DNA of 46,096 nucleotides from an uncultured Candidatus Saccharibacteria bacterium (GCA_964554645.1 CAZKPK010000004.1:1-46096); one strand, 5' to 3'. Counted from the stretch's first letter, positions 19,616 to 44,054 are shown. Notes: a model not told the origin generated them from the letters alone. A program made the numbers and translations.

Positions 19616-19653
19616 TTTAGCATTAGTGCGCGACCGCTGCTTAATGCTAAATT
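19614..19653 (+). terminator. 40-nt palindromic repeat/terminator, copy 2 (contains the stop codon)
   Basis: aatttagcattag-tgcgcgaccgctg-cttaatgctaaatt, between convergent genes. Confidence 0.7.
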
Positions 19654-28284: not shown

Positions 28285-29346
28285 ATGAAAATCCATAAAC
28301 CAAAAAAATCACTGGGGCTAAAAACCATAAACGGTTTCTCCCGAGCCAAAAAGGCTTTAGGGCTAAAAACCATAAACGGTTTCGCCCGAGCCAAAAAGGC
28401 TTTAGGGCAAAAAACCATAAACGGTTTCGCCCGAGCCAAAAAGGCTTTAGGGCAAAATTTTTTGAAGTCAGAAATAGCGTTGCAAAAAATTATTGAAGCG
28501 GGAGAAATAAAAAAAGACGATGTGATCTTGGAAATAGGACCAGGTCGGGGAGCGCTCACGGAGAAGTTGTTAGAAAGAACCAATTGTGTTATTGCTGTAG
28601 AAAAAGACCGCGAGCTTTTTGAATTTTTAAAAATAAAATTTAAAAAAGACATCGAGAACAATACTCTCATACTAGTATGCGAGGATATACTCCAATTTAA
28701 TATAAGCGAAACGGTTTCAAGTTTTTTGAATGGTCTGGCTGGGGTAGGGGACCCAGAGAACCGAGGACCTGAAAAAAATTTGAAACCGTTTCGCTACAAA
28801 ATTATTGCCAACATTCCTTATAACATTACTGGAGCGATTTTAAAAAAATTCCTAACAGAAAAAAACCAGCCAAAAGTTATGGTGCTGATGGTTCAGCACG
28901 AAGTCGCGATGAGAATACTCGCCCGCGATCGGAAAGAAAGCCTGCTTTCAATTTCAGTCAAGGCGTATGGGGAACCAAAAATGATTGCGAAGGTTGATAA
29001 AAGATATTTCAAACCGGCGCCAAAGGTGAACTCGGCAATAATCTCCATAAAAAATATTTCTCGCAGGATATTTAATTCTCCTCTTGAGGAGTACCCTTTA
29101 GGGGGAGGAGGACGAATTCTTCCACCTCGACCCGATGGTCATCGGGTCACCCCTCAAGAGGGGAATGTCAACGAAGAAAAATTTTGGGAAATAGTGAGGG
29201 TGGGTTTTGCGCACAAGAGAAAAAAGCTTTCCAGCAACCTGAAAATCTTACTAAAAAACGGAAGCCTTGCTTCCGTTTTAGACCTAGGAAATAAAAGAGC
29301 GGAAGATTTGACGCTTGCAGACTGGATTTCTTTGGCTAAAGCCTAG
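28285..29346 (+). CDS. rsmA: 16S rRNA (adenine1518/1519-N6)-dimethyltransferase RsmA/KsgA, with three in-frame repeat insertions
   Basis: KKALGQNFL, ILEIGPGRGALTEKL (SAM motif), IIANIPYNIT, FAHKRKKL. The start is set at ATG 28285; the tracked start at 27937 lies inside uvrD. Confidence 0.92.
   Translation: MKIHKPKKSLGLKTINGFSRAKKALGLKTINGFARAKKALGQKTINGFARAKKALGQNFLKSEIALQKIIEAGEIKKDDVILEIGPGRGALTEKLLERTNCVIAVEKDRELFEFLKIKFKKDIENNTLILVCEDILQFNISETVSSFLNGLAGVGDPENRGPEKNLKPFRYKIIANIPYNITGAILKKFLTEKNQPKVMVLMVQHEVAMRILARDRKESLLSISVKAYGEPKMIAKVDKRYFKPAPKVNSAIISIKNISRRIFNSPLEEYPLGGGGRILPPRPDGHRVTPQEGNVNEEKFWEIVRVGFAHKRKKLSSNLKILLKNGSLASVLDLGNKRAEDLTLADWISLAKA
28316..28450 (+). repeat. Tandem repeat, 3 x 45 bp, in frame at the RsmA N-terminus
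   Basis: Units 28316-28360, 28361-28405 and 28406-28450 (ggc[t/a]aaaaaccataaacggtttc[t/g]cccgagccaaaaaggctttag). They encode G[L/Q]KTINGF[S/A]RAKKAL three times, directly before the conserved GQNFL. Confidence 0.9.
28705..28795. repeat. 91-nt inverted-repeat (MITE-like) element in frame in rsmA
   Basis: Arms agcgaaacggtttcaagtttttt / aaaaaaatttgaaaccgtttcgct (16 perfect bp plus a T/A run). GC-rich core ggggtaggggacccagagaaccgagg. Encodes ETVSSFLNGLAGVGDPENRGPEKNLKPF. Confidence 0.7.
29074..29166 (+). repeat. Palindromic repeat element family, copy 1 (93 nt = 31 codons, in frame in rsmA)
   Basis: aattctcctcttgaggag...gacccgatggtcatcgggtc...cccctcaagaggggaat. The termini are inverted repeats. 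Encodes NSPLEEYPLGGGGRILPPRPDGHRVTPQEGN. Confidence 0.8.
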
Positions 29347-29435
29347 CGCCTAAAGCCTAATTGGAGTATAATTAACCCATAACTAAATTAGATTGGTTAA
29401 AACAAAAGAGAACACTTTGGATTGCTTTTGCAGTA

Positions 29436-30323
29436 GTGTTTATTGTTGCGCTTTTTCTTCTAAAAACGACATCAGTATTTGAAAACAAGGAAACATATAA
29501 GGGAGCTGGTCAAAAAAACGGGTTAACTTATGGCAATGTCACAATCAAAGATTTAGTAAATAAAGATACCGACGGCGACGGAATATTGGATTGGGAAGAA
29601 AGCTTGTGGGGAACGGATCCAGCTAAAAAAGAAACCACTCCCGGAACACCGGATAAAGTGGCAATAGAAAATCTAAAAAAACAAACGGGACAAAACCAGC
29701 AAGGACTACCCTTGCTGAAAGAAAATAGTCAAGGTATAGAAAATTTAACTAAAACCGACCAGTTTTCCAGAGAACTTTTTAGCACCATCGCCACCTTGAA
29801 CCAAAATGGAATTGTGGACCAAGCGACCATAGATAAATTGGGAGCTTCTTTGGCCGAAAAAATCCAAAATCCCGTCATTAGAAAAGTTTTTTCAATTTCC
29901 GAAATGAAGATAATAAACGACAACAGTATTCAAGCTTTTACAAATTACAGTAATACTTTAAATAGCATTTTCCAAAAATACCCAACCACTTATTCAGTAT
30001 TGGATGTATTGCAAGAATTTATAATTGATGAAAACAATGTTGATATTAGCGCGCTAAAAAAACTTGACCCAATTGTGGAACAATCAAATAAAGTGATAAT
30101 TGCGATGATAAAAATGAGTGTGCCACAATCCATTTCAATAGCACATTTAAATTTCATAAATGCGCTGGAAAGATTAGTGGAAAATGTAAATGACATAAAA
30201 CTTTATGAGACTGACGCTATCGTGGCTTTGGGTGGCATAAGTAAATATCAAGAAAAGACCACTCAATTAGAATCAAGCCTCAATAATCTCATAAATGCAA
30301 TCGAACAAAAATTGAAGAACTGA
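29436..30323 (+). CDS. Hypothetical membrane-anchored protein with a DxDxDG calcium-binding-like motif (first gene of the T4SS-like cluster)
   Basis: GTG start inside a hydrophobic segment. The frame is open from 29376 (..KQKRTLWIAFAVVFIVALFLL) but holds no canonical start upstream. DTDGDGILDWEESLWGTDP motif; the rest appears helical. Confidence 0.45.
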   Translation: MFIVALFLLKTTSVFENKETYKGAGQKNGLTYGNVTIKDLVNKDTDGDGILDWEESLWGTDPAKKETTPGTPDKVAIENLKKQTGQNQQGLPLLKENSQGIENLTKTDQFSRELFSTIATLNQNGIVDQATIDKLGASLAEKIQNPVIRKVFSISEMKIINDNSIQAFTNYSNTLNSIFQKYPTTYSVLDVLQEFIIDENNVDISALKKLDPIVEQSNKVIIAMIKMSVPQSISIAHLNFINALERLVENVNDIKLYETDAIVALGGISKYQEKTTQLESSLNNLINAIEQKLKN

Positions 30324-30350
30324 GTGAAAAATCATATAATAAATGACAAA

Positions 30351-32822
30351 ATGACAGCTAAAAATAAAACAATAAAACTCATTTCCGCTTTTCTGATTAT
30401 CTCTATGATCGCGCCCACTGTTTTACTTTCTGTACCTAAAAAAGCAAACGCATTCGGCTTTATAGTATATGATCCAACGAATACAGCTGTAGCCACAAAA
30501 AATTCAATTGGTAACTGGATATCCAAAGCCTTTAACGCTATAACCTCAAAAGCAACGACAATAAGTGCCCTAAAAGACACTAAAGAATGGGCGGCGTGGC
30601 TTCTTACTACGACACTTAGAACAGTCGCAAAAGCAGTCTTAGCAAGAATGACTCAAGCCACCATAAACTGGATTAACTCCGATTTCCACGGTTCGCCTCT
30701 TTTCATAGAAAATCCAGAATCTTTCTTTAGAGACATAGCTAAATCAGAATTGAGGAGGTTGGTAGATGCGATCGGTTACGATACTTTTAGATTTCCTTTC
30801 GGTAAACAAACCGCGCTCAATGTCATATCAAGTTATAAAAGACAACTTGCGGACAATGCGGCATATACATTGAGTAATGTAATAAACGACCCCGACCTGC
30901 TTCGCCAATACAGAAATGATTTCAATTACGGAGGGTGGAATGGATTTCTGATAAATACGCAGTATCCACAAAATAATTATTTAGGATTCAATATGATTAT
31001 AGAGCAAAATCTCGCAAGTAGACTGCAGGGAACATTGGTGGCGCCGGCGCAGAAAATACAAAATCTCTTGCAACAAGGAATGGGCTTTTTGTCTCCGCAA
31101 ACTTGTCCAAGCAATCCAAGATATAACAATGGTGTAAATGAATTTTTACAACCGAGCTTTAATGATTCTAAATATGACAAAGAGCATCCTTTCGACCCAA
31201 GCACAGGGGCTAGCGGATCTTTGCAATGGTCTAACGCAAAAGACCAAGCAAAAGCAAGGTGGACTTTTGATAATACCTGCCCAGGCGGTTTAGTAAATAC
31301 TACTCCCGGTTCGGTGGCGGCAAATCAAATAATGACTGCAATGAGTTCAAATTTTAGACAAAGCGAACTCGCGACAGCATTTGGTAATAGCTTATCAGCT
31401 ATTTTTGACGCTCTGATAAATCACTTTTTCGATAAAGGATTAAACGCGCTTGCAGAAACAATCAGCCCCGCGCCTTCGGAAGACAACTGGAGTTATGACG
31501 GAAGCACTCTCGGTGGCGCGACAACATACACCGCTCCTGGAATCAGCGCTTTAAGAATCCCGCAAAATGTTACCGCCACTGTCGGTCAAGTAACCAGCAC
31601 AATGATATCCGGTGGCACCGCGCCTTATAGAATTCAAGATTTTGAACGAAACCGAATAAATCCATCAGTGGCAACCGCCCAAATTTCTGCTTCCGGTCCT
31701 TCCGGCCCCACTCTCACGGTCACTGGCATCGCGCCGGGTCAAACTCTTGTTGTAGTTGAAGATTCATCTAATCCAGTCCAAACTGTTACCGTGCAAATTG
31801 CAATAAATGCTATCGGGGCTTTAACAGTGATCCCACACGATATTTTAACCGATCTTAGTCATCCAATTAGCGCAATCATCTCGGGCGGTGAAGGACCTTA
31901 TTTTCTGCGAATAGGCCCCAATGAAGCGGTGGCCATAGCGGACTTTGCCGGCGCGAACTTGATCGTAAGCGGTATTGAGAGGGGTAATACTTTTATGGTA
32001 ATTGAAGATTCGTCTTTCCCAATCAAAAAAACTACCACTGTCCAAATTACAATAAATGGTCCTGGAGATTTAATCATTCCACAAAATGTTTTGGTTAATG
32101 TTGGTCAGGTGACCAGCGTACCCATAACTGGCGGCACAGAACCTTATCTTGTCACGGACCAACAAGATATCAGAATAGCAACTGGTCAAATCTTTAACGC
32201 TGTTCAAAACACTCCAGCCGCTCTTAAAATAACCGGTATTACGGCGGGCGAAACAGCAATCGTCATTAAAGATTCATCCAGTCCGATTAAAATCGCCAAC
32301 ATAAATATTACAGTAATTGACAATAGAACTTTAATAGTCACTCCGCAAAATATTTCAGCCAGTGTCGGTCAAACGACCATTGCAACCGCATCCGGCGGCG
32401 CGGCGCCTTACAGCCTAAAAACTTCGCCGAATGAAACAGTGGCAACCAGCCAAATTTGGGGTTCCAATATCTTGATCGCCGGTGTCGCTCCGGGTCAAAC
32501 TTCGGTTATCGTTAAAGATTCGTCAACACCCGCTCAAACTGTTACTGTTCCAATCATTATCGGATCGCTGATGATCGCCCCGCAAAATGCTTCTTTTGGC
32601 ATCAGTCAGGCAACTAGCCTAACCATCTCCGGCGGTATGGCGCCTTACAGCATAGAAACTCCGCCCGGCGCGGAAGTGGCGACTGCTCAAATTTTCAATA
32701 ATGGCCAAAGCGCCTCCGCCACCCTCACGATTGTTGGCGTTGCGTCGGGCCAAACTTCGGTTATCGTTAAAGATTCGTCAACACCCGCCAAGACCGCCGG
32801 CATCCAGGTGGTGATAAATTAG
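30351..32822 (+). CDS. Large surface protein: N-terminal TM/signal, ~400-aa domain, then five ~83-aa Ig-like tandem repeats
   Basis: ATG 30351 (MTAKNKTIKLISAFLIISMIAPTVLLSVPKKANA); the tracked GTG at 30324 directly abuts the upstream TGA. Repeats from about 31557 each contain PQN..VGQ.T...SGG.APY ... G.APGQT.V.V.DSS.P. Confidence 0.6.
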   Translation: MTAKNKTIKLISAFLIISMIAPTVLLSVPKKANAFGFIVYDPTNTAVATKNSIGNWISKAFNAITSKATTISALKDTKEWAAWLLTTTLRTVAKAVLARMTQATINWINSDFHGSPLFIENPESFFRDIAKSELRRLVDAIGYDTFRFPFGKQTALNVISSYKRQLADNAAYTLSNVINDPDLLRQYRNDFNYGGWNGFLINTQYPQNNYLGFNMIIEQNLASRLQGTLVAPAQKIQNLLQQGMGFLSPQTCPSNPRYNNGVNEFLQPSFNDSKYDKEHPFDPSTGASGSLQWSNAKDQAKARWTFDNTCPGGLVNTTPGSVAANQIMTAMSSNFRQSELATAFGNSLSAIFDALINHFFDKGLNALAETISPAPSEDNWSYDGSTLGGATTYTAPGISALRIPQNVTATVGQVTSTMISGGTAPYRIQDFERNRINPSVATAQISASGPSGPTLTVTGIAPGQTLVVVEDSSNPVQTVTVQIAINAIGALTVIPHDILTDLSHPISAIISGGEGPYFLRIGPNEAVAIADFAGANLIVSGIERGNTFMVIEDSSFPIKKTTTVQITINGPGDLIIPQNVLVNVGQVTSVPITGGTEPYLVTDQQDIRIATGQIFNAVQNTPAALKITGITAGETAIVIKDSSSPIKIANINITVIDNRTLIVTPQNISASVGQTTIATASGGAAPYSLKTSPNETVATSQIWGSNILIAGVAPGQTSVIVKDSSTPAQTVTVPIIIGSLMIAPQNASFGISQATSLTISGGMAPYSIETPPGAEVATAQIFNNGQSASATLTIVGVASGQTSVIVKDSSTPAKTAGIQVVIN

Positions 32823-32867
32823 AGAGTTACCGTCGGGCTTTTTAGCCCGCTGGTAATTTGAAAAAAT

Positions 32868-33284
32868 ATGAAAATAAATGTGAAACAAGATAATGATGAT
32901 TTTGACAAATGGAATGGCATTAAGAAAAATCTTAATGCACGGGAAGTTAATTCAGTATTGTTTCCACAGTTGGGAGAAATTTGGATGTGTGCTCTTGGAA
33001 AAAATATAGGACGCGAACAAAATGGGGGTGGTCAAAATTTTTCTCGTCCAATGCTCGTTATTAAGAAGTTCAATAACGAAATTTTTTGGGTTTTACCACT
33101 ATCTACTAAACAAAAGAAAATAGATTTTTATTATAATTTTATAGATAAAAATAATCAAAATGTTTCAATTGTCATTTCTCAGATCAGACTGATGCATATC
33201 AAAAGATTTGAAAGAAAACTTTACGATATGAAGATGTCAGCTGTTATAGAAATCAAAAAACGATTGCAGGAATATTTAATATAA
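32868..33284 (+). CDS. PemK/MazF-like toxin-fold protein, with no adjacent antitoxin
   Basis: LGEIWMCALGKNIGREQNGGGQNFSRPMLVIKK matches the MazF/PemK pattern G-D/E-I-W...G-x-E-Q-x-G...R-P-x-L-V-I/L. Confidence 0.55.
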   Translation: MKINVKQDNDDFDKWNGIKKNLNAREVNSVLFPQLGEIWMCALGKNIGREQNGGGQNFSRPMLVIKKFNNEIFWVLPLSTKQKKIDFYYNFIDKNNQNVSIVISQIRLMHIKRFERKLYDMKMSAVIEIKKRLQEYLI

Positions 33285-33440
33285 AATCGAAACCCCGCCA
33301 AAAGGCGGGGGATCTCGGAGCCCGAAGGCACTGTATATATCAAATATAACAAACTGAAAATAAATGTCAAGGAAAAAGAGTGGAATTTGGGTAAATAGTG
33401 TAAAATAGAGTTATAAAGTCTGTAAAGTTCATAAAGTAAA

Positions 33441-35669
33441 ATGCAAAACAAAGTAAAAAAAATAATTCCATACTGCCTGATACTACTTATCCTGGTCGGA
33501 CTGTTTAGCCCGCTGGCGGAGGTGAAGGCGCAAATCACCCCAGGAATAGAGCCATCAGCAATAGCAAAAGCACAAGCGGCGGCGCGAGCGGCTTATGAAG
33601 CAGAACAGGTGAGATTAAAGGCAGCGCCGACTGGTGACGCATTTAAGGACGAAGTTTTTGGGGACTGTGGCATTAAACCCTGGACCTGGCCAGCTTGCTT
33701 TTTATCGGTAGGATTCTATTACACCATTTTCCAACTTCCATCTTGGATTCTTTGGCTATCAGCACAATTTTTTGATGTGATGATCAATCTTGGAATAGAT
33801 AGTTCTGTGACGAGAGCTTCAGGTTTTATCCCCGCTGCCTGGGGGGTTACTCGAGACTTTTCAAATATATTTTTCATACTTATTTTACTTTATGTCGCTA
33901 TCCAAACAATCTTGGGAATGGGTCACGAAACTAAGAAAATAATAGTCCGAGTGATAATTATGGCGTTACTCATAAATTTTTCTATGTTTTTTACGAAAGT
34001 GGTTATTGATTCTTCTAATATCTTGGCTTTAGTTTTTTATAACAAACTTGAAATAAAAAATGCAGATGGAACATCTAGACCAAAAGACCCAGCACTTCAA
34101 ACAGGAAAAGATATATCTGGTGCGATGTGGAAAACTTTTGATGCCACTCAATTGATGACACCAAAAACTATAACACTACTAAAAACAACCACAGTTGAAG
34201 GTATTACAAAAGAAGGAAGCACCATACCTCTTTCTTTAAGACTTGGAATAATGGTAATTGCTGGATCCATTATGCTTTTTGCCGCTTATGCATTTTTTGT
34301 AGCTGGTCTTATGTTTATAGGAAGATTAATTGAACTATGGGTCTTAATTATATTCTCCCCTTTTGCATTTATGTCTTGGCCCATACCACTATTAAGAGGT
34401 ACTGACTATATAGGATGGGATAATTGGTCAAAAAGATTGATTGCGACCTCTTTTATGGCGCCGATTTTTATGTTCTTTATATACTTTATATTTATGCTGT
34501 TGCCAAAAATATCTGAATTTACCAGAGGAGATACAACAACAATATTAGGAACTATCTTGGCTATCTTAATCCCAGCAATGATAGTCTTGGCTCTTCTTCT
34601 AAAGGCAACTCATTTTGCAAAGAAAGGTGGTGGACGGTTTGGAGAATTAATCATGAAAGGCGCAAAAATAGCCGGTGGGCTTGCGGTAGGCGCGGCAACG
34701 GGCGGGACGGCGATGCTGGCAGCGGGGACTATAGGAAAATTTGCTTCAAGTATTGCGAACAACGACGCATTAAAAGCAAAAGCTGCTGCGGGAGACAAGG
34801 GGGCGCAAAGAAAACTTGCATTAGCGAATTCTTTTGCAAACAAGAGCTTCGATCTTCGTCAAACTGGATTAGGAAAATTTGTGGGAACCAAAACCGGCAT
34901 GGATTTCAATAAAGGAACAGGAGTTCTGGGATTAGATACAAAGAAATTTGAGGGCGGACGCAAGGCGCAAGAGGAACGTAAAATAGAAGAAGAACAAAAG
35001 AAACAGAAAACATATGAATTAAGTGGAGATGCTGCAATAAAACAAGTTAATCGTAACGCACAATATGAAGAGGATAAAAAAGTTGCTAAACAAGCTGCGC
35101 AAGCCTATGGTTTTGAATTTAACGAAAAAAACTTTAGGGAAGACTATGAAAAGGGAGGAGATATGGCTTCGCACGGATTAAATAAAACAGTTGATAAAGG
35201 AAGCGTTGGAACTACTGCAGAAATTAACGCTGAACGCAGAACAGCTTATGCAAATAGTTTAGACACCCAACGTGAAAAGGAAAAAGCACAAGGAGCAATG
35301 AAAACATTCTGGGAGGAGTGGAAAAAAGGTGCAAAGAAAATGGTAACAACACCGGGCGGTCTCGCAACAACAGCTACACTGGGAGTTACAACTATGGGAA
35401 TAGGAGCTGTGGCATCTATTATAGGTGGAGGATTTTTGCATGCGCTTAAACAAACACTCAGTGTTCGTGCAACAAATGCTGAAGTGGTGGCAGGAGTACG
35501 TAGAGGAGAAGATAAAGATAAAAAACTTTTAAAGTTGCTAGACGAAAGGAGAAAAGAACATGAAGCAGAAACTCACACAGCACCAGCACACCCACCAGCA
35601 ACGCCGACAGCACCAGCTAATTCAGCCCCATCGCATCCATCGGCAGGAAGTGGAGGTGGGCATCCTTAA
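33441..35669 (+). CDS. TrbL/VirB6-like polytopic membrane protein with a Lys/Ala- and Pro-rich C-terminal tail
   Basis: Signal peptide MQNKVKKIIPYCLILLILVGLFSPLAEVKAQ, about 7 TM helices, and a long hydrophilic tail ending in APAHPPATPTAPANSAPSHPS. Lies in a cluster with PrgI/VirB4. Confidence 0.6.
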   Translation: MQNKVKKIIPYCLILLILVGLFSPLAEVKAQITPGIEPSAIAKAQAAARAAYEAEQVRLKAAPTGDAFKDEVFGDCGIKPWTWPACFLSVGFYYTIFQLPSWILWLSAQFFDVMINLGIDSSVTRASGFIPAAWGVTRDFSNIFFILILLYVAIQTILGMGHETKKIIVRVIIMALLINFSMFFTKVVIDSSNILALVFYNKLEIKNADGTSRPKDPALQTGKDISGAMWKTFDATQLMTPKTITLLKTTTVEGITKEGSTIPLSLRLGIMVIAGSIMLFAAYAFFVAGLMFIGRLIELWVLIIFSPFAFMSWPIPLLRGTDYIGWDNWSKRLIATSFMAPIFMFFIYFIFMLLPKISEFTRGDTTTILGTILAILIPAMIVLALLLKATHFAKKGGGRFGELIMKGAKIAGGLAVGAATGGTAMLAAGTIGKFASSIANNDALKAKAAAGDKGAQRKLALANSFANKSFDLRQTGLGKFVGTKTGMDFNKGTGVLGLDTKKFEGGRKAQEERKIEEEQKKQKTYELSGDAAIKQVNRNAQYEEDKKVAKQAAQAYGFEFNEKNFREDYEKGGDMASHGLNKTVDKGSVGTTAEINAERRTAYANSLDTQREKEKAQGAMKTFWEEWKKGAKKMVTTPGGLATTATLGVTTMGIGAVASIIGGGFLHALKQTLSVRATNAEVVAGVRRGEDKDKKLLKLLDERRKEHEAETHTAPAHPPATPTAPANSAPSHPSAGSGGGHP

Positions 35670-35721
35670 GCAACAAATATTAAAAAGTCGATTATAAAAA
35701 ATACAATACAGTTATAAATAC

Positions 35722-36060
35722 TTGACAACGTATATGCCCCACGCTACAATTAAAAATGAGAGCGGCCGAATATTAAAAGAAGTCTCTGGCTTTGAATGGG
35801 ATGCCGGAAATAGGCAGAAAAGCCTTGTAAAACACGAAGTCAGCAACGAGGAATGTGAGGAAACTTTTTTCGATTATAATAAAGAGATACAGAAAGACAT
35901 TTTGCATTCCATAAATGAAGAACGTCATGTTTTAATAGGACAGACCAAAAAAAGGAGATTATTGTATCTAATATTCACCATAAGGAAAAATAAAATAAGG
36001 GTTATCTTTGCCAGAGACCTTAACAAAAAAGAGCGAAAATTATATGGAGAAAAAAATTAA
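35722..36060 (+). CDS. brnT: BrnT-family toxin (DUF497)
   Basis: FEWDAGNRQKSLVKHEVSNEECEETFFD ... ERHVLIGQT..RLLYLIFTIR.NKIRVIFARDLNKKERKLY fits BrnT. TTG start; ATG 35734 is an alternative. Confidence 0.8.
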   Translation: MTTYMPHATIKNESGRILKEVSGFEWDAGNRQKSLVKHEVSNEECEETFFDYNKEIQKDILHSINEERHVLIGQTKKRRLLYLIFTIRKNKIRVIFARDLNKKERKLYGEKN

Positions 36061-36310
36061 AATTCCAAAATTTAAAAATGAAGACGAGGAAAGAAATTTT
36101 TGGCTGAAGTTGGATCTGTCCAAACATTTTGAGAGATTTGACTTTGAGAGAGTATCGTTCCCCAATTTAAAACCTTCTTCTCGGCCTATTTCATTACGCC
36201 TGCCGTCACATTTAATCGCGCGGGTCAAAGAACATGCAAATGAGATAGATATGCCCTATCAGTCATTGATGAAAAAATATATCGCTCAAGGAATATTAAA
36301 AGAAATCTAA
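36044..36310 (+). CDS. brnA: BrnA-family antitoxin
   Basis: ISLRLPSHLIARVKEHANEIDMPYQSLMKKYIAQGI is a CopG/RHH-like BrnA C-terminus. ATG 36044 overlaps the end of brnT. Confidence 0.75.
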   Translation: MEKKIKIPKFKNEDEERNFWLKLDLSKHFERFDFERVSFPNLKPSSRPISLRLPSHLIARVKEHANEIDMPYQSLMKKYIAQGILKEI

Positions 36311-36317
36311 ATATTTT

Positions 36318-37037
36318 ATGGACGATAATATAACAAAAATAATAAAGGAAAAGTTCGATGCCCTACCACAAAGCATTCAGGAAATGATTCTGTCCACCAA
36401 TTATCAAGACACTCTGATAGAAATCGGGAAACAATATCAGTTGAATGTAGAACAAATGGGTATTCTTGAAAGGGAAACCACCCTTGTAATGATGGGGTTA
36501 ACACCCACCAAAAATTTTGAAGTTGAACTAACGCGTGAACTTCATGTTGATAAATTTAAAGGGTCTCAAATCGTCAAAGATATAAATGAAAAAATATTTT
36601 TAAGAATTAGAGAATTATTAAAACTAATGAATACCCCGAAAGGGGAAGAACCATCGCTCGAAAATTCTCCTCCTGAGAAGTACCCCTTAGAGGGAAGTGG
36701 ACAAATCTATCCACCCCGGCTTTCAGCCACCCCTCAAGAGGGGAATAAAAATGATACAACAATTCTAAACAAAGCCGGCATTGAAATTATTCCGGGAAAG
36801 TTAGAACTCGCGAATGGAGAAAAACCAATAGAAAATAGAGAAGACATCTTAAAAAAAATAGAAAAGCCGGAAGAAGTGCATCCGATACTAGCGCAAAAAT
36901 TATCTGGCTCTTTACAAACCCCAGTAATAAAAACAGAACATTCTCTGGAAAATCTTACAAAGACAAACACGCCAATACCACAGAAACCGCAAACCTATCC
37001 TAAAAACTTGGATCCGTATCGCGAAATGCCAGAATAA
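36318..37037 (+). CDS. Hypothetical protein carrying an in-frame palindromic element
   Basis: 239 aa, no family recognised. The element copy lies at 36663-36746. Confidence 0.45.
   Translation: MDDNITKIIKEKFDALPQSIQEMILSTNYQDTLIEIGKQYQLNVEQMGILERETTLVMMGLTPTKNFEVELTRELHVDKFKGSQIVKDINEKIFLRIRELLKLMNTPKGEEPSLENSPPEKYPLEGSGQIYPPRLSATPQEGNKNDTTILNKAGIEIIPGKLELANGEKPIENREDILKKIEKPEEVHPILAQKLSGSLQTPVIKTEHSLENLTKTNTPIPQKPQTYPKNLDPYREMPE
36663..36746 (+). repeat. Palindromic repeat element family, copy 2 (84 nt = 28 codons, in frame)
   Basis: aattctcctcctgagaagtaccccttagagggaagtgg...ccacccctcaagaggggaat. Same orientation and reading frame as copy 1; encodes NSPPEKYPLEGSGQIYPPRLSATPQEGN. Confidence 0.8.
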
Positions 37038-37114
37038 TTACGAATTATCAATTAATGTTCTATAATGAAGTGTGGCTGTTGATTATTCGTAATTGTTAAT
37101 TCGTAATTAATTTT

Positions 37115-37528: not shown

Positions 37529-37583
37529 TATTTTTTTAAATCAGTTATAAAGTAAAAAAAAGTTTATAAAGTAGAAAAAGAAA

Positions 37584-38222: not shown

Positions 38223-38239
38223 TTTTCAAGTAAAAATAT

Positions 38240-40081: not shown

Positions 40082-40120
40082 TCATCAACTTAAAAGTGCA
40101 AAGTTGTAAAGTGAATATGA

Positions 40121-40126
40121 TATAAT
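40121..40126 (+). promoter_or_regulatory. Extended -10 (TGaTATAAT) 6 nt upstream of ATG 40133
   Basis: tgatataat taaact ATG. Confidence 0.45.
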
Positions 40127-40132
40127 TAAACT

Positions 40133-41119
40133 ATGAGGTTAAAATTCTTATCGTTATATTTGATTGCAACATTCGCGTTATTGGGGGTAATTCTCATGCC
40201 CCAAACAGGCACTGCCCAATCTAGCGGCATCTTGGTTAACATCGCACCTCCCAGCCCAGCTCCATATGAAAACACCAGTATTACTTTGAAAAGTTATGAG
40301 TATAATCTGGATACTGTTTTGATCGCTTGGTCGGTGGATGGTAAAAGTGTTTCGTCCGGGATCGGAAAAAAATCTTTTTCTGTAAACGCTCCCGGCGCCG
40401 GCTTGGAAACAAGCGTCAGCGCCACGCTATCTCTGCCAGATGGAGTAGTGGAAAAAAAAATAACAATCAAGCCGACCATTATGGTATTGCTTTGGCAAGC
40501 GAACGATTCTTATGTCCCGCCATTTTATAAAGGCAAGGCTTTGCCGACACCCGACAGCGAAGTAAAAGTGATCGCGATGCCCGAAATAAGAGCTGGTTCT
40601 GGCTTAGTTGATCCACAAAATATGACTTATTCTTGGAAAAAAGATTATACCAACAATGTGGACGGCTCAGGTTATGGTAAAAACTTTTTTCTTTACATTA
40701 ATGATTATTTGGACGATTCAAATAATATATCGGTGGCAGTTTCAACCGTGGATCAGAACTATTCAAGCCAGGCAAACATAGATATAGGAACGACGCAGCC
40801 GAAAATACTGTTCTACAAAAACGACAATATATTCGGAACTCTTTGGAATATGGCGCTGACCGATACCTATAAAATACAAGGAGAGGGGATAGTGGAGGCG
40901 GTGCCTTATTTTATCTCGCCAAAAGAAATCCAAAATCCGACGTTAATATGGAGCTGGTCTATTAACGATAGCCCAGTAAGCTTAACAAGCTTCAAAAAAA
41001 ATTTAATGCCGCTTCAAGTAGAAGCGGGAACACACGGGACATCTAAACTAGGGCTTAGTATTGAAAATCAAGACAAAATTTTTCAGACAACCAACAAGGA
41101 AATAAATATAGAATTCTAA
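40133..41119 (+). CDS. Secreted beta-rich hypothetical protein of the T4SS-like cluster
   Basis: Signal peptide MRLKFLSLYLIATFALLGVILMPQTGTAQS. No family recognised. Confidence 0.45.
   Translation: MRLKFLSLYLIATFALLGVILMPQTGTAQSSGILVNIAPPSPAPYENTSITLKSYEYNLDTVLIAWSVDGKSVSSGIGKKSFSVNAPGAGLETSVSATLSLPDGVVEKKITIKPTIMVLLWQANDSYVPPFYKGKALPTPDSEVKVIAMPEIRAGSGLVDPQNMTYSWKKDYTNNVDGSGYGKNFFLYINDYLDDSNNISVAVSTVDQNYSSQANIDIGTTQPKILFYKNDNIFGTLWNMALTDTYKIQGEGIVEAVPYFISPKEIQNPTLIWSWSINDSPVSLTSFKKNLMPLQVEAGTHGTSKLGLSIENQDKIFQTTNKEINIEF
41099..41119 (+). repeat. Left 21-nt direct repeat flanking the NYN cassette (3' end and stop codon of the preceding gene)
   Basis: gaaataaatatagaattctaa versus gaaataagtatagaattctaa at 41724-41744 (20/21). 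Confidence 0.75.
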
Positions 41120-41125
41120 TTTTTT

Positions 41126-41647
41126 ATGAAAAATGTAAATAAAAATTATGCCTTCATAGATGCTCAAAATGTTCATTTAGGTATTTTGGAGTTCGGTTGG
41201 AAAATTGATTGGAAGAAATTTAGAATTTGGCTTAGAAATAAATTCGGCATTGAAAAAGCTTTAATATTTATCGGATATAATAAAGGCAATGAAAGTCTCT
41301 ACGCTTTTTTACAACATGCCGGATTTGTCTGCATTTTCAAACCAACTCTTGCATACAAAGATGGAACGGTGAAAGGCAACTGTGATGCAGAACTAGTTTT
41401 ACATTCTGCCGCTATTGAATTTGAAAATTATAATAAAGCTGTTATAGTTTCAGGTGATGGCGATTTTGCCTGCTTAATAGAATTTTTACAAGAAAAAAAT
41501 AAACTTGAAATGCTTGTCGTGCCAAACGAAAATAAATACTCCGCCTTGTTAAAAAGATTCAACACATCGAAGAAAAAATTTATTTTATTTCTTAACAGAG
41601 AAAGAACGAAAATAGAATATAGTCCCACAAATGAAAAGGGCGCATAA
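41126..41647 (+). CDS. NYN-domain (LabA-like) protein, second copy of the fold in the window
   Basis: YAFIDAQNVHLGI ... VIVSGDGDFACLIEFLQ. Confidence 0.8.
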   Translation: MKNVNKNYAFIDAQNVHLGILEFGWKIDWKKFRIWLRNKFGIEKALIFIGYNKGNESLYAFLQHAGFVCIFKPTLAYKDGTVKGNCDAELVLHSAAIEFENYNKAVIVSGDGDFACLIEFLQEKNKLEMLVVPNENKYSALLKRFNTSKKKFILFLNRERTKIEYSPTNEKGA

Positions 41648-41723
41648 AGCATAAAGCCATATGCAGCCTTCTCGTGATGATGCAACCATTATACACCAGT
41701 ATGAAAATAAAAGTCAAGCAAAT

Positions 41724-41744
41724 GAAATAAGTATAGAATTCTAA
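41724..41744 (+). repeat. Right 21-nt direct repeat flanking the NYN cassette
   Basis: See 41099-41119. It still reads ..EISIEF-stop in frame, like the gene end EINIEF-stop. Confidence 0.75.
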
Positions 41745-41758
41745 GTAGTTATAAAGTT

Positions 41759-41764
41759 TATAAA
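41759..41764 (+). promoter_or_regulatory. -10-like TATAAA 6 nt upstream of ATG 41771, within the duplicated gttataaagt/tataaagta motif
   Basis: gttataaagtttataaagtaaaa ATG. The same motif lies upstream of ATG 33441 and ATG 37584. Confidence 0.4.
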
Positions 41765-41770
41765 GTAAAA

Positions 41771-42556
41771 ATGCAAAGAAAAATAATATTATACATTTTA
41801 ATACTCATTATGTTGGTTGGACTGTTTAGCCCGCTAGCGCAGATACATGCACGAACTCTGACACAAGCAGAACAACAACAAATAACTTCTCAGCAGGCAA
41901 TATTAGATTCAACTAAAGCAGAATATGTTAGTTTGGGTAATGCATCAGGGGGAACAGCGGCACAACAAAAGGCGCGCACTCAAAGATATAATGAACTACA
42001 AACAATAAGGGATGCTGCTACTGCAAAGATAAATTACATACAGAACATGGCTAAAAAAGACTTACGGCCGGAAACAATACAGCAAAATCTCAATCCTAAA
42101 TCAGCAACTCCTGCTCCAACACCTGCAATAACTCCCTCAAACACGAATTATCAGCTTTTAGCTCCGCTACCCGACCCCAATAAATCAAATGAATTAGTCA
42201 GGGAGTTTGATACCGCGGGGGGGCTAGGTAAATATTTAAACCAAATAATAAAAATTTTTATTGGCTTAGCTGCGGTTTTGTCGGTAGTGATGATTGTGGT
42301 GGGCGGACTGGAATATATGACCAGTGAATTACCGGGGTTAAAAAGCGAAGGCAAGGAAAGAATAATCCATGCAATTTTAGGACTCCTAATTGCCCTCGGC
42401 GCTTACGCGCTTCTTTTTACCATAAATCCCGACCTGCTTAAATCTGATGTAGATAAAAAGATAGCGCCTACAACCGTTACTCCGCCTGCAACCGCTAAGC
42501 CTGCAGTTACAACGCCTTCATTACAACCAGTTGTTTCACCACCTGTTATTCCATAA
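41771..42556 (+). CDS. T4SS pilin-like (VirB2/TrbC-like) protein
   Basis: Signal peptide MQRKIILYILILIMLVGLFSPLAQIHA. C-terminal module LGKYLNQIIKIFIGLAAVLSVVMIVVGGLEYMTS...GKERIIHAILGLLIALGAYALLFTI, which is two hydrophobic helices typical of T4SS pilins. Pro/Thr-rich tail. Confidence 0.65.
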   Translation: MQRKIILYILILIMLVGLFSPLAQIHARTLTQAEQQQITSQQAILDSTKAEYVSLGNASGGTAAQQKARTQRYNELQTIRDAATAKINYIQNMAKKDLRPETIQQNLNPKSATPAPTPAITPSNTNYQLLAPLPDPNKSNELVREFDTAGGLGKYLNQIIKIFIGLAAVLSVVMIVVGGLEYMTSELPGLKSEGKERIIHAILGLLIALGAYALLFTINPDLLKSDVDKKIAPTTVTPPATAKPAVTTPSLQPVVSPPVIP

Positions 42557-42673
42557 TAAATTTTACCTGTCCCGTAACTAAATTTTAGATTAAAAAAATA
42601 TTAAATAAATATAAAAATAGGATATAATAAGTTAAATAAATAATGATAATTATAAATAAATTTTAGTACTGGG

Positions 42674-43924
42674 ATGCCAAAAAGAAATTTCATACTTTTA
42701 ATAATAATCTTGAGTTTAGTAATAATAGCGGTCTTTGGATTTTTATATTTTCAAAAAGAGCCGAAGGTTCCGGAAGACAGCAGTGTGGGCATAAATTTTA
42801 TTTCGCAATTCAATCCATTCGCAACCAAACTAAAACCTCCGGCGGTAATCCCTCCAGCTGATATCTCAAATCAGTCTCCCCCTGAAACAGTGGGAGAAAA
42901 ACTAACCAAGGTTTCCAGTATGCCTGTAGCGGGATTTATAGTATTTGTAAAGGAAAGATTAAAAGATGAAGGGACTGAATTTGCGCCGGCTTTAAGATAT
43001 GCAGAAAAAGCGAGTGGGAACATCTATCAGACTTTTGCGGATAAAATAGAAGAACAAAAGTTCTCAAAAACTTTAATTCCTAAAGTGCACGACGCATATT
43101 TTGGCAATCGCGGGGAGTCTGTGGTTATGCGATATTTAAAGGAGGACGGGAAAACCATCGAAACTTTTGCTGGCGCTCTGCCAAAGGAATTGTTGGGGGG
43201 GGAGATAATAGGAAACAATGAAATTAAAGGGTCTTTCCTGCCCAACAATGTAAAGGACCTAAGCGTATCACCTGATGGCTCAAAAATATTCTATTTGTTT
43301 ATTAGCGGGGAGAATATGGTGGGTACGATTTTAAACTTAGCAAACAATAAAAAAGTTCAGGTGTTCGATTCTCCTTTTACCGAGTGGCTGTCGCTCTGGC
43401 CGGCTAAAAATATCATCACTTTCACAACGAAGCCTTCTGCGAACATTCCCGGATATATGTATAGCGCTGATGCAGCTGGAAAAAATTTGACTAAAGTATT
43501 GGGTGATATAAATGGACTAACCACGCTTATGAGCCCAAATGGAAAATTGGTTCTTTCTGGTGACAACAATCTTTCATCATATATCTATCATCTGGACAGC
43601 AGAAATTCGGACCCGTTGGGAGTAAAGACTCTGCCCGAAAAGTGCGTCTGGAGTAAAATGAGCGACGTTGCTTACTGCGCCGTGCCAAAATCAATCAACC
43701 CGGGCGAATATCCAGATGTCTGGTATCGGGGAGAAATGTCTTTCAGCGATCAATTTTGGAAAATAGATATTAAAACCGGAAATGCGACCCTGTTGTTGGA
43801 TCCGGTTGCTAGCGCGGGGGGAGAAGAAATTGATGGCATAAAGCTTGCCCTAGATGAAAACGAAAATTACTTATTTTTTGTGAATAAAAAAGATTCTTTC
43901 CTTTGGAAACTGGAACTCAAATAA
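42674..43924 (+). CDS. Membrane-anchored protein with PD40/TolB-like beta-propeller repeats
   Basis: N-terminal TM helix; SPDGSKIFY and SPNGKLVLSGDNN repeat motifs. Confidence 0.45.
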   Translation: MPKRNFILLIIILSLVIIAVFGFLYFQKEPKVPEDSSVGINFISQFNPFATKLKPPAVIPPADISNQSPPETVGEKLTKVSSMPVAGFIVFVKERLKDEGTEFAPALRYAEKASGNIYQTFADKIEEQKFSKTLIPKVHDAYFGNRGESVVMRYLKEDGKTIETFAGALPKELLGGEIIGNNEIKGSFLPNNVKDLSVSPDGSKIFYLFISGENMVGTILNLANNKKVQVFDSPFTEWLSLWPAKNIITFTTKPSANIPGYMYSADAAGKNLTKVLGDINGLTTLMSPNGKLVLSGDNNLSSYIYHLDSRNSDPLGVKTLPEKCVWSKMSDVAYCAVPKSINPGEYPDVWYRGEMSFSDQFWKIDIKTGNATLLLDPVASAGGEEIDGIKLALDENENYLFFVNKKDSFLWKLELK

Positions 43925-44054
43925 AATTTCCCTCTTGAGGGGTGACCCGATGGTCATCGGGTCGGGGTGGATACACCTCACCCCAGCCCTCTCCTGAAAG
44001 GAGAGGGGGAATTCATCCACCTCCCCCTCAAGGGCACTCCTCAAGAGGAGAATT
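43925..44054 (-). repeat. Palindromic repeat element family, copy 3 (130 nt, intergenic, opposite orientation, with an extra nested palindrome)
   Basis: The reverse complement starts aattctcctcttgaggagtgcccttgagggggaggtgga and ends gacccgatgaccatcgggtcacccctcaagagggaaatt. It carries the additional ccctctcct-ttc-aggagaggg. It fills the whole spacer between two convergent stop codons. Confidence 0.8.

What the first reader, a model, noticed from the sequence alone, without database searches (positions are those of the whole stretch)
29074..44054. A dispersed palindromic element family inserted in frame in protein-coding genes (RPE-like)
Three copies of one element share inverted-repeat termini (aattctcctcttgagg.. 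/ ..cctcaagaggggaat) and internal blocks. The copies are at 29074-29166 inside rsmA, at 36663-36746 inside ORF 36318-37037, and at 43925-44054 in the spacer between two convergent genes, in reverse orientation. The two genic copies are 93 and 84 nt, both multiples of 3. They start on a codon boundary, have the same orientation, and use the same element reading frame. Their peptides are NSPLEEYPLGGGGRILPPRPDGHRVTPQEGN and NSPPEKYPLEGSGQIYPPRLSATPQEGN. In RsmA the insert falls between the methyltransferase domain and the C-terminal helical domain. The intergenic copy has an additional nested palindrome (ccctctcct-ttc-aggagaggg). In-frame selfish palindromic repeats of this kind are established for Rickettsia palindromic elements. 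I am not aware of an equivalent description for CPR-type genomes, and that statement is unverified.
Basis: partly seen in the sequence, partly recalled or inferred. Interest (0 to 1): 0.75.

Follow-up and report, generated by a model that had tools for sequence, protein, structure and literature searches.

The report
In-frame palindromic selfish repeats, nuclease-linked
Three copies of a small GC-rich palindromic selfish DNA element sit in this Patescibacteria (CPR) window, two of them translated inside genes; relatives of the element in other bacteria carry a small DUF559 nuclease gene between the same two arms, which may be the long-missing mobility factor for this widespread kind of repeat.

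Summary
Three copies of one 84-130-nt imperfect palindrome are present: in rsmA, in ORF 36318-37037, and between two convergent genes. The RPE-like reading is supported. Forty-five of 120 close RsmA homologues lack any insert at this site, and others carry different palindromic families there. Distant solved RsmA structures lack the insert, and the model shows a disordered interdomain loop. Across related genomes, ten of eleven full-length genic copies are multiples of 3 read in one frame.

Going further:
- Each arm is a BoxC/PIT/TM-type three-block "intrastrand triplex" motif, already known from E. coli. The right arm is conserved across many phyla and has a covarying inner hairpin.
- Two contigs identical elsewhere differ by a sister element plus co-converted flanks, which indicates spread by homologous recombination.
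- In an independent sample, DUF559 (Vsr-like) nuclease genes are flanked by such arms (71% against 3-10% in controls). They form discrete units of about 480 nt. E. coli ycjD has a BoxC/TMECO copy about 180 nt downstream of its stop and a partial C-block-plus-hairpin at the stop.

I read the window copies as ORF-less derivatives of nuclease-bearing elements. That last step is inferred; no DUF559 gene lies in the window.

The parts
28285..29346 (+). rsmA (16S rRNA dimethyladenosine transferase), the host gene of copy 1
   Evidence: PF00398 homologues. The 353-aa gene product is P0001. Matches to solved RsmA structures.
29074..29166 (+). Family-A element, copy 1 (93 nt), in frame in rsmA. It encodes NSPLEEYPLGGGGRILPPRPDGHRVTPQEGN.
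   Evidence: Modelled as a coil loop of low confidence. Absent from 45 of 120 homologues.
29074..29112 (+). Left arm of copy 1: hairpin CTCCTC-TT-GAGGAG (29078-29091), small variable hairpin CCCTTTAGGG (29094-29103), and G-rich third block GGAGGAGGA (29104-29112).
   Evidence: Alignment of 25 family copies. In the family consensus (GAGGTG; copies 2 and 3 and most relatives) the third block mirrors the purine arm; in copy 1 itself the block reads GAGGAG/GGAGGAGGA. Read directly from the sequence; rule tested at scale.
29120..29166 (+). Right arm of copy 1: C-rich block TTCCACCTCG, variable hairpin ACCCGATG-GT-CATCGGGT (29130-29147), terminal hairpin CCCCTCAAGAGGGG (29150-29163), then AAT.
   Evidence: This module recurs in 119 or more loci from many phyla. 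The inner hairpin covaries.
36318..37037 (+). Hypothetical CPR protein gene, the host of copy 2. The insert lies in a variable acidic linker.
   Evidence: Homologue alignment. The identical protein is found in 4 independent sequencing-run assemblies.
36663..36746 (+). Family-A element, copy 2 (84 nt), in frame. It encodes NSPPEKYPLEGSGQIYPPRLSATPQEGN.
   Evidence: Most homologues lack it. One homologue (P0132) has a copy at a slightly different junction.
43925..44054 (-). Family-A element, copy 3 (130 nt), between convergent genes. Its last bases supply two nucleotides of the TAA stop codon of ORF 44053-44547(-).
43972..44008 (-). Nested single BoxC/TMECO-like triplex motif (CCCTCTCCT-TTC-AGGAGAGGG-CT-GGGGTGAGG), inserted in the central spacer of copy 3.
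   Evidence: Gap in the alignment. Mirror third block detected. The same nesting position occurs in L102 and in RsmA inserts P0052 and P0055. Fits the pattern published in PMC4666352.

Best explanation
The three sequences are non-autonomous, ORF-less copies of a selfish palindromic element, here called family A. Each arm is a BoxC/PIT/TM-type three-block motif: a pyrimidine arm, a purine arm, and a third block that mirrors the purine arm. A small variable hairpin sits in its second loop. The two arms face each other across a short AT-rich spacer. Full-length relatives carry a gene of about 115 codons in that spacer, encoding a DUF559 (Vsr-like PD-(D/E)XK) nuclease. I propose that this nuclease, supplied in trans, makes the break or nick that lets the element be copied by recombinational repair. 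Copying would go both into new AT-rich sites and, through homologous flanks, into the same site of orthologous genes in other cells. Inside genes, only copies that fall in tolerant linkers and keep the host reading frame (mostly a length divisible by 3, read in the frame that gives NSPLEEYPLGGGG...TPQEGN) survive. They are then translated as a disordered Gly/Pro-rich loop. Shown: family membership, in-frame tolerance, presence/absence polymorphism, a recombination patch with co-converted flanks at the rsmA site (for a sister family), three-block covariation, and the statistical and structural association of such arms with DUF559 genes. Inferred: that DUF559 is the mobilising enzyme, that it acts on the window copies, and that the copies are translated.
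For: Element and family.

Inner hairpin: 106 distinct sequences, nearly all forming 3-8 bp stems. All 5 pairs show double changes, in 36 cells against 11.2 in shuffles (0 of 500). Pairing is 94.5% against 52% or less when slid.

Three-block rule: 300 of 742 hairpins have a mirror copy of the purine arm within 50 nt on the 3' side. By comparison, 64 have a direct copy there and 40 have a mirror copy on the 5' side. The left and right arms of family A differ by coordinated changes in all three blocks.

In-frame copies: ten of eleven full-length genic copies have lengths 81-93 nt divisible by 3 and are read in frame +0; the eleventh (L118, 89 nt) shifts frame in its right arm. Only 5 of 20 intergenic copies are divisible by 3.

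Polymorphism.

Recombination patch: L123 and L124 are 100% identical for about 960 nt upstream and 480 nt downstream. They differ only in the element plus about 30 and 20 nt of flank, which carry 21 clustered mismatches.

DUF559 link:
- The ORFs are confirmed as PF04480.
- L036 and L089 (intact under genetic code 25) carry the gene between A-type arms, and L190 has the A-type left/right asymmetry.
- In 80 independently sampled DUF559 loci, a C/G hairpin lies within 150 nt upstream in 52 of 73 and downstream in 52 of 73. Controls give 20 of 597 random windows and 7 of 67 windows downstream of other ORFs.
- Seven loci share 79-89% identity over only the ORF plus roughly 10-130 nt beyond it on each side (typically 50-75), in mostly unrelated contexts.
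- E. coli ycjD has a TMECO/BoxC copy about 180 nt downstream of its stop, beyond a duplicated ycjD 3' end, and a partial C-block-plus-hairpin at the stop. It is present in only 3378 of 5426 genomes.
Against: - No DUF559 gene lies in the 46-kb window, and I could not scan the rest of the genome.
- No DUF559 gene with exactly the family-A left arm was found. The closest cases are L036, L089 and L190.
- The co-conversion patch was seen for a sister family (C), not for family A.
- A nuclease alone cannot insert DNA, and no target-site duplication or defined target was found.
- DUF559 genes might instead be secondary invaders of the elements' central spacer, as the nested BoxC-like motif is.
- The hairpin next to the start codon could partly be an expression signal.
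- Holder et al. saw no mobility genes near E. coli TM sites.
- Translation of the inserts is inferred from the frame constraints only.
Confidence: 0.55

Rival explanations
1. The elements are selfish palindromic repeats, but the DUF559 genes are unrelated passengers. On this view DUF559 genes are free-standing homing-endonuclease-like genes that prefer to insert into the central spacer of pre-existing palindromes. The repeats themselves would spread by another route, such as host recombination, replication slippage at hairpins, or an unknown enzyme.
For: The central spacer is a recurrent insertion point for other small motifs (window copy 3, L102, P0052 and P0055). Some DUF559 loci show arm arrangements that look like junctions of adjacent elements. 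Arms of very different sequence families flank DUF559 genes.
Against: The conserved unit shared by seven loci ends at the outer edges of the arms, not at the ORF. The A-type left/right asymmetry is kept both in ORF-bearing and in ORF-less forms. Seventy-one per cent of DUF559 genes have arms on each side, within tens of bases of the start and stop codons.
Confidence: 0.2
2. The motif is mainly a host-useful structured DNA or RNA signal, in the way REP sequences or triplex motifs have been proposed to be. It might act as a terminator, an mRNA stabiliser, a supercoiling site or an instability-promoting site. On this view it is kept by selection and moved only by ordinary homologous recombination and horizontal transfer.
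For: A 19-mer is perfectly conserved across phyla and the hairpin covaries. In a Bacillota MAG the terminal hairpin is followed by T runs. TM motifs form triplexes in vitro and mark unstable intergenic regions in E. coli (PMC4666352). Copy 3 sits exactly between convergent stop codons.
Against: The element occurs in frame inside unrelated housekeeping genes, and genic copies show a strong bias to lengths divisible by 3 and to one frame (10 of 11), whereas intergenic copies do not. Presence varies between near-identical genomes. No Rfam family matches. Maher and colleagues found no promoter or terminator activity for PIT elements, as cited in PMC4666352.
Confidence: 0.12
3. The elements are REP/REPIN-like units, or IS-derived MITEs, mobilised by a tyrosine (RAYT/IS200-type) or DDE transposase encoded elsewhere in the genome.
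For: The architecture is a head-to-head dimer. The inner hairpin of the right arm often carries a CGTC head and a CCA tail, like the CGTC-tagged REPs that include RPE-4 and RPE-6 (PMC3733652). On the opposite strand the loops are mostly GNA triloops, typical of stable single-stranded DNA hairpins (the stability is from my own knowledge).
Against: Among the 119 loci no transposase gene is shared. There is no GTAG tag. Di Nocera et al. themselves found no transposase linked to CGTC REPs. No target-site duplication is seen. The window copies carry CGAC or CGGC rather than CGTC. CCCGTC/GACGGG occurs in only 4-6 of 73 DUF559 flanks.
Confidence: 0.08
4. The block is a functional protein module of RsmA and the other hosts, or else an assembly artefact.
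For: The peptide is conserved among many RsmA homologues.
Against: The insert is absent from 45 of 120 close homologues and from all solved RsmA structures. The same DNA element occurs in intergenic positions and in unrelated genes. It is modelled as a low-confidence coil. The identical ORF 36318 protein was recovered from four independent sequencing-run assemblies, and the element from dozens of MAGs.
Confidence: 0.03

Closest known systems
Rickettsia palindromic elements (RPE; Ogata et al. 2000 and 2002, as summarised in PMC10969869)
   Same: Both are dispersed palindromic repeats of about 100 nt in a small AT-rich genome. Both are inserted in frame in unrelated housekeeping genes and encode a conserved peptide that sits in a tolerated loop. 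No transposase is known for either. Di Nocera et al. report that RPE sequences end in a CGTC tag, which the cross-phylum right arm here often shares.
   Different: The host phylum is different (Patescibacteria). The arms have a three-block BoxC/TM-type architecture. The right arm is conserved across many phyla. Here there is a candidate protein partner (DUF559) and direct evidence of allele replacement by recombination. Sequence homology to RPE consensus sequences was not tested.
BoxC / PIT / TMECO intrastrand triplex motifs (Hoyne et al. 2000; Holder et al. 2015, PMC4666352)
   Same: Both have a C-rich arm, a G-rich arm and a third G-rich block that mirrors the second. Both are GC-rich islands, highly conserved, multi-copy, widespread, and associated with variable loci. 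The nested 37-nt element in copy 3 fits the published TMECO pattern closely.
   Different: TMECO was reported as always intergenic and without any mobility gene nearby. Here the motifs are dimerised and carry an extra hairpin in loop 2, so they fall outside the 1-6-nt loop definition. They are translated inside genes, and they flank DUF559 genes. In E. coli K-12, ycjD has a TMECO copy about 180 nt downstream of its stop.
CGTC-tagged REPs and REPINs (Di Nocera et al. 2013, PMC3733652; REP/RAYT literature)
   Same: Both are short hairpins with an unpaired head and a CCA-like tail, arranged mostly as head-to-head dimers. Intragenic copies are known. The CGTC class 'apparently lacks a dedicated transposase'.
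   Different: Stems here are 3-8 bp, against 8-9 bp in the published families. The window copies have CGAC or CGGC heads. The hairpin is embedded between conserved C-rich blocks that the paper does not describe. No RAYT is present.
Mobile GC clusters of yeast mitochondrial DNA (for example GC42; PMC4478555)
   Same: Both are GC-rich palindromes in an AT-rich genome with optional presence. GC clusters are recombination and gene-conversion hotspots, and intron-encoded endonucleases have been proposed as helpers. In-frame copies of GC clusters in var1 are from my own knowledge.
   Different: The yeast case is organellar and eukaryotic. There is no sequence relation, and no dedicated small nuclease gene lies between the arms.
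Vsr-like (EDxHD) homing endonucleases such as I-Bth0305I (PMC3239194, PMC2677866; grouped with DUF559 in PMC3424549)
   Same: The nuclease fold clade is the same. These are selfish genes that spread by break-induced gene conversion with co-conversion of flanks.
   Different: Those genes reside in introns, inteins or split-intein loci and have extra DNA-binding regions. DUF559 proteins here are bare domains of about 115 aa, flanked by structured repeats, and they have abundant ORF-less derivatives.

Membership tests
Rickettsia palindromic elements (RPE) | Dispersed palindromic repeat of about 100-150 bp, multi-copy in the genome | tested here: met
   Three copies of 84-130 nt in 46 kb. Many further copies in related MAGs.
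Rickettsia palindromic elements (RPE) | In-frame insertion in unrelated protein-coding genes, encoding a conserved peptide | tested here: met
   Hosts are rsmA, ORF 36318, purD, pheT, tgt and an FAD-oxidase gene.
Rickettsia palindromic elements (RPE) | Insert located in a surface loop compatible with the host fold | tested here: met
   Coil with block-mean pLDDT 49-69 between the two RsmA domains. Corresponds to a 10-residue linker in the solved B. subtilis RsmA. This rests on a model only.
Rickettsia palindromic elements (RPE) | Sequence homology to one of the RPE consensus families of Rickettsia | not tested
The only link is the CGTC tag reported in PMC3733652.
BoxC / PIT / TM intrastrand triplex motif | Three consecutive blocks, the third being a mirror of the purine arm (G.G:C and A/T.A:T triplets) | tested here: met
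   Met by the nested element and the right arm of copy 2. The left arm (GAGGAG/GAGGTG) and right arm (GAGGGG/GGGGTG) were checked by hand on the alignment. The right arm of copy 1 has one mismatch.
BoxC / PIT / TM intrastrand triplex motif | Short loops (1-6 nt) between blocks; TMECO pattern CCCTCNCCC-N3-6-GGGNGAGGG-N3-GGGNGAGGG | tested here: not met
   The nested element nearly fits the pattern. The family-A arms do not: their stems are 6 nt and their second loop holds a 10-20-nt hairpin.
BoxC / PIT / TM intrastrand triplex motif | Actual triplex formation | not testable with these tools
   This needs CD, NMR or footprinting, as done in PMC4666352.
CGTC-tagged REP | Unpaired CGTC (or TGTC/CCTC) head, stem of 8-9 bp starting with A/T pairs, 4-5-nt loop, CCA tail | tested here: inconclusive
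   The head and tail are present in most cross-phylum modules. However, stems are 3-8 bp with triloops, and the window copies carry CGAC or CGGC.
REP/REPIN mobilised by RAYT | GTAG tag and a RAYT gene flanked by the repeats | tested here: not met
   No GTAG tag is present. No shared transposase-like gene was found among the 119 loci.
Classical IS-derived MITE | Terminal inverted repeats plus a target-site duplication and a parent IS with the same ends | tested here: not met
   Inverted arms are present, but no duplication was seen in 30 copies. No IS transposase carries these ends. The only ORF found between such arms is DUF559.
Homing-endonuclease-driven element | Nuclease gene inside the element | tested here: inconclusive
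   True for relatives (L036, L089, and 80 metagenome loci). The window copies are ORF-less, and no DUF559 gene lies in the window.
Homing-endonuclease-driven element | Spread into the same site of homologous genes, with co-conversion of flanks | tested here: met
   L123 against L124 at the rsmA site, for sister family C. Insert classes are interspersed on the RsmA tree.
Homing-endonuclease-driven element | Nuclease cleaves the empty target site | not testable with these tools
   This needs biochemistry.

The most novel reading that the evidence does not exclude
Several 'orphan' bacterial repeat classes may be the ORF-less progeny of one ancient and widespread class of minimal selfish elements. 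The classes are BoxC/PIT/triplex motifs, the family described here, and possibly CGTC-REPs including some RPEs. The only gene of the parent element would be a DUF559 (Vsr-like) nuclease set between two structured arms. Such elements would spread by break-induced gene conversion rather than transposition. In CPR bacteria they would routinely remodel essential proteins by in-frame insertion.
Probability: 0.3. Interest if true: 0.85.

Novelty: new variant of a known kind. Interest (0 to 1): 0.72.

Why it matters
In-frame selfish palindromes have been a near-unique curiosity of Rickettsia. Finding them as a common feature of Patescibacteria shows that proteins in tiny, AT-rich genomes are repeatedly remodelled by selfish DNA. 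The hosts here include rsmA, purD, pheT and tgt, and one linker is hit by at least four element families. This also warns annotators that Gly/Pro-rich blocks in CPR proteins can be repeat-derived.

The wider lead concerns mobility. Two published surveys state that BoxC/triplex motifs and CGTC-REPs have no known mobility gene. The strong flanking association with DUF559 genes gives a concrete candidate that can be tested directly. E. coli ycjD is part of that evidence. It also suggests a function for a large domain family of unknown function.

Tried and rejected
- **Rfam.** A gathering-threshold scan of the window and E-value scans of the element and of five non-CPR loci found nothing apart from tRNAs.
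- **Full-text search for the core sequence.** No hits.
- **Shared neighbouring genes.** Clustering all ORFs of the 119 loci showed no transposase. The top clusters were host genes such as rsmA, a helicase, rplJ and rplL.
- **Target-site duplication.** None was seen. The 5' flanks are T-rich and the 3' flanks A-rich.
- **Source contig for RsmA.** Not on record.
- **Peptide searches.** A concatenated 60-aa query found only 2 proteins, a wasted search. A profile search of 1.84 billion representatives found 24 clusters, nearly all without Pfam domains.
- **Viral contigs.** One hit only, so phage carriage is not supported.
- **CGTC tag as a general feature of DUF559 arms.** It is present in only 4-6 of 73 flanks, against 2-3% of controls.
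- **An empty ycjD site in E. coli O157:H7.** The locus is rearranged and not informative.
- **tRNA-like or ribozyme readings of the cloverleaf.** Rejected: there are no Rfam hits, the outer stem is 15-17 bp, and triloops dominate.

Full report
**1. The observation**

The terminal 17-mer occurs five times with up to 3 mismatches, against 0.10 expected. Copies 1 and 3 are 91-92% identical over both arms. A profile built from 25 family members finds no further copy in the window.

Copy 3 fills the whole spacer between two convergent stop codons and supplies two bases of the TAA stop of ORF 44053-44547(-). It also carries a 36-37-nt nested insert.

As single-stranded DNA, copy 1 folds into a four-way cloverleaf with z = -5.5, and copy 3 gives z = -5.3 to -6.2.

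The RsmA and ORF 36318 homologues place the organism among Patescibacteria of the Nomurabacteria/Paceibacteria type.

**2. It is an insertion, not part of RsmA**

I examined 120 RsmA homologues that are 56-78% identical to the window protein. At exactly this site they divide as follows:
- 45 have only a four-residue linker (EENK, KENN and similar).
- 32 carry this family (NSPLEEYPLGGGG...TPQEGN).
- 14 carry a second family (TSPQPSPYKGEGG...).
- 10 carry a third family (PPLLVEEGVGGGDSK...).
- 3 carry a fourth family.
- The rest carry mixtures, nested forms or other inserts.

These classes are thoroughly interspersed on a neighbour-joining tree built without the insert columns.

Solved RsmA structures from distant phyla have about 10 residues where the window protein has 39. 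An AlphaFold model built on the 120-sequence alignment places residues 264-294 in a coil with block-mean pLDDT 49-69. The coil lies between strand 250-256 of the methyltransferase domain and helix 297-307 of the C-terminal domain.

The second host protein shows the same picture. The insert sits in a variable acidic linker that most of 82 homologues fill with unrelated sequence. The identical protein was assembled from four separate sequencing runs, so the junctions are not chimeras.

**3. In-frame copies in other genes**

Among the full-length family-A copies in those loci, the genic ones lie in these hosts:
- rsmA, in five further genomes;
- purD, in two genomes;
- pheT;
- tgt;
- an FAD-linked oxidase gene.

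Single arms are in frame in a second position of one rsmA gene and in a TatD-like gene.

Ten of the eleven full-length genic copies are 81-93 nt long, divisible by 3, and read throughout in frame +0. The oxidase copy is 89 nt and changes frame in its right arm. Only 5 of 20 intergenic copies are divisible by 3. Frames +1, -0 and -2 are free of stop codons in about half of the copies, so the exclusive use of one frame is only partly explained by stop codons.

This is the RPE pattern as summarised in PMC10969869. Literature searches found no description of it for CPR genomes.

**4. Anatomy**

The family alignment gives this layout:
- Left arm: AATT-CTCCTC-TT-GAGGAG-TA-[small variable hairpin]-GGAGGTGGA.
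- AT-rich spacer of 5-8 nt.
- Right arm: TCCACCCCG-[variable hairpin]-CACCCC-TCAA-GAGGGG-AAT.

The right arm is the widely conserved part. It occurs as a single unit, in dimers and in arrays. Hosts include Patescibacteria, Gracilibacteria, Saccharibacteria, a termite-gut Bacillota MAG, Thermotogaceae, Ignavibacteria/Kapabacteria and Bacteroidota. They also include Nitrospirota, Verrucomicrobiota, Hyphomicrobiales, Desulfobulbaceae, Sulfurovum, Bdellovibrionales, Cloacimonadota and a Simkania MAG.

Its inner hairpin has 106 different sequences, nearly all of which pair. On a gap-free set of 29 sequences:
- all five pairs show changes on both sides;
- 36 compensatory cells are observed, against 11.2 in shuffles (0 of 500 shuffles reach the observed value);
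- 94.5% of cells are paired, against 52% or less when the partner column is slid.

Each arm also obeys a three-block rule: the G-rich block is the mirror image of the purine arm of the terminal hairpin, with A replaced by A or T. Across all fetched loci, 300 of 742 suitable hairpins have such a mirror block within 50 nt on the 3' side. By comparison, 64 have a direct copy there and 40 have a mirror copy on the wrong side.

In the family consensus the left and right arms of family A differ by coordinated changes in all three blocks: CTCCTC/GAGGAG/GAGGTG against CCCCTC/GAGGGG/GGGGTG. Copy 1 itself departs from this by one base in each third block.

This is the architecture published as BoxC, PIT or 'TM' intrastrand triplex motifs (PMC4666352). 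The nested insert of copy 3 (CCCTCTCCT-TTC-AGGAGAGGG-CT-GGGGTGAGG) fits the published TMECO pattern closely. The family-A arms depart from the published definition, because a hairpin occupies the second loop.

That inner hairpin often has a CGTC head and a CCA tail. These are the tags of the CGTC-REP superfamily, which Di Nocera et al. say includes RPE-4 and RPE-6 (PMC3733652). However, the stems are shorter, and the window copies read CGAC or CGGC. I therefore leave that membership open.

No Rfam family matches.

**5. How it spreads: recombination**

Two contigs from sister assemblies, L123 and L124, are 100% identical for about 960 nt upstream and about 480 nt downstream of the rsmA site. 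They differ only in a patch of about 150 nt. The patch consists of a 96-nt element of the third family plus about 30 nt and 20 nt of flanking coding sequence, which carry 21 clustered mismatches. The native seven-codon linker is replaced.

This is allele replacement with co-converted flanks, not a clean insertion. Together with the patchy tree, it explains why one linker is occupied so often. Once an element sits in a conserved gene, it can move between lineages through the conserved flanks.

Family-A junctions in rsmA also differ by a codon or two between genomes. No target-site duplication is seen at 30 copies.

**6. The candidate partner: DUF559**

Clustering all ORFs of the 119 loci showed no shared transposase. 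However, the small ORFs of one cluster proved to be DUF559 (PF04480, E = 1e-24 to 5e-36), and each lies between two arms:
- L036 and L089 lie between A-type modules. L089 is from Gracilibacteria and is intact when TGA is read as Gly.
- L074 is a decayed copy.
- L061 lies between second-family arms.
- L054 has two copies between arms identical in peptide to the RsmA inserts P0085 and P0086.

I then sampled DUF559 genes independently of any repeat, taking 80 metagenome loci chosen by protein similarity only. A perfect C/G hairpin of at least 6 bp lies within 150 nt upstream in 52 of 73 loci, and downstream in 52 of 73. The controls are far lower: 20 of 597 random windows in the same loci, and 7 of 67 windows downstream of other long ORFs.

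Seven loci share 79-89% identity over only about 410-550 nt, namely the ORF plus roughly 10-130 nt beyond it on each side (typically 50-75 nt). Their surroundings are mostly unrelated, so the arms and the ORF form one discrete unit. L190 shows the A-type left/right asymmetry around a DUF559 gene.

In E. coli K-12, ycjD encodes a DUF559 protein. It has an inverted repeat at its start, a partial C-block-plus-hairpin spanning its stop codon, a duplicated 3' end, and a full TMECO/BoxC copy about 180 nt downstream of the stop. The gene is present in 3378 of 5426 complete E. coli genomes. The TM-like 49-mer occurs 1-30 times in every genome.

DUF559 belongs to the Vsr clade of PD-(D/E)XK nucleases, which also contains the homing endonuclease I-Bth0305I (PMC3424549). 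Both repeat surveys state that no mobility gene was found near these repeats. None of 25 papers that mention DUF559 links it to repeats.

**7. Interpretation and limits**

I read the window copies as ORF-less derivatives of nuclease-bearing elements. Selection would keep them inside genes only where a disordered loop is tolerated.

What is shown:
- the family and its anatomy;
- the in-frame constraints;
- the polymorphism;
- one recombination patch;
- the association with DUF559.

What is not shown:
- that DUF559 acts on the arms;
- that a DUF559 gene exists in this genome (none lies in the window);
- how new, non-homologous sites are colonised;
- that the inserts are translated.

The main rival is that DUF559 genes are secondary invaders of the central spacer.

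**8. Verdict**

It is a new variant of a known kind: RPE-like in-frame palindromes built from BoxC/TM-type motifs. It comes with a testable lead on what mobilises a widespread class of orphan repeats.

Noticed in passing
window 28315-28457: A 45-nt tandem repeat (3.2 copies, 96% matches) duplicates the 5' end of rsmA in frame (KKALGQ/KTINGFARA). It gives a 50-residue N-terminal extension of low model confidence. The unit contains TAAACGGTTTCGC.
   Followed up: partly
window 28705-28795: A second palindromic insert lies inside rsmA. Its 23-nt inverted termini read AGCGAAACGGTTTCAAGTTTTTT (96% complementary) around a 45-nt core. It sits in a region that varies among homologues and has block-mean pLDDT 58-66. 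Its core 13-mer recurs in the tandem repeat upstream.
   Followed up: partly
window 44298-44342: A perfect 45-nt palindrome (CCCCAAAGACGGTCATCGGGGA-T-TCCCCGATGACCGTCTTTGGGG) lies in frame in the Jag/KhpB-like ORF 44053-44547(-), encoding TPKTVIGDSPMTVFGD. It may be another in-frame palindromic insert of a different family.
   Followed up: no
window 15595-15636 and 19612-19653: A 42-nt hairpin repeat (98% identical) starts right at the TAA stop codons of two different genes. It looks like a terminator or REP-type element.
   Followed up: no
L123 1900-2180 and L124 1005-1213: Two near-identical contigs differ only by a palindromic element plus co-converted flanks in rsmA. This is direct evidence of allele replacement by recombination.
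   Followed up: yes
L019 (Nomurabacteria) rsmA, locus about 7029-7112 and 7567-7612: This rsmA carries two inserts. One is a full family-A copy at the interdomain linker. The other is a single right arm in frame inside the methyltransferase domain (ISTPLPQAGAPLKRGM), read in a different frame.
   Followed up: partly
L210 2030-2850 (E. coli K-12, ycjD region): ycjD (DUF559) has an inverted repeat at its start and a partial C-block-plus-hairpin across its stop codon. A partial duplicate of its own 3' end follows, then a full TMECO/BoxC motif about 180 nt downstream. The gene is absent from 38% of complete E. coli genomes.
   Followed up: partly
L036 1-600: The DUF559 element with A-type arms is bracketed by a 21-nt direct repeat (CCAAGTTTTTGGTGTTGGAGT). 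This could be a long target duplication or an insertion into a repeat.
   Followed up: no
L190 1360-1945: The whole DUF559 element, arms included, is free of stop codons in one frame for 580 nt. No ATG, GTG or TTG start lies between the left arm and the nuclease domain. The nuclease may be expressed as a read-through or fusion product.
   Followed up: no
L005, L034, L041, L056, L091, L105 (Bacillota MAG WRLT01): These loci hold tandem arrays of the right-arm module and of partial modules (ttctttCCACCCCGTC...). The terminal hairpin is followed by T runs, as in intrinsic terminators.
   Followed up: no
window 30324-32822 and 32868-36310: The large ORF 30324-32822 has internal repeats of about 250 nt (families D1 and D2). 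Upstream of ORF 36318 the same genome encodes PemK-like and BrnT/CopG toxin-antitoxin genes, and downstream a TraC-like gene.
   Followed up: no
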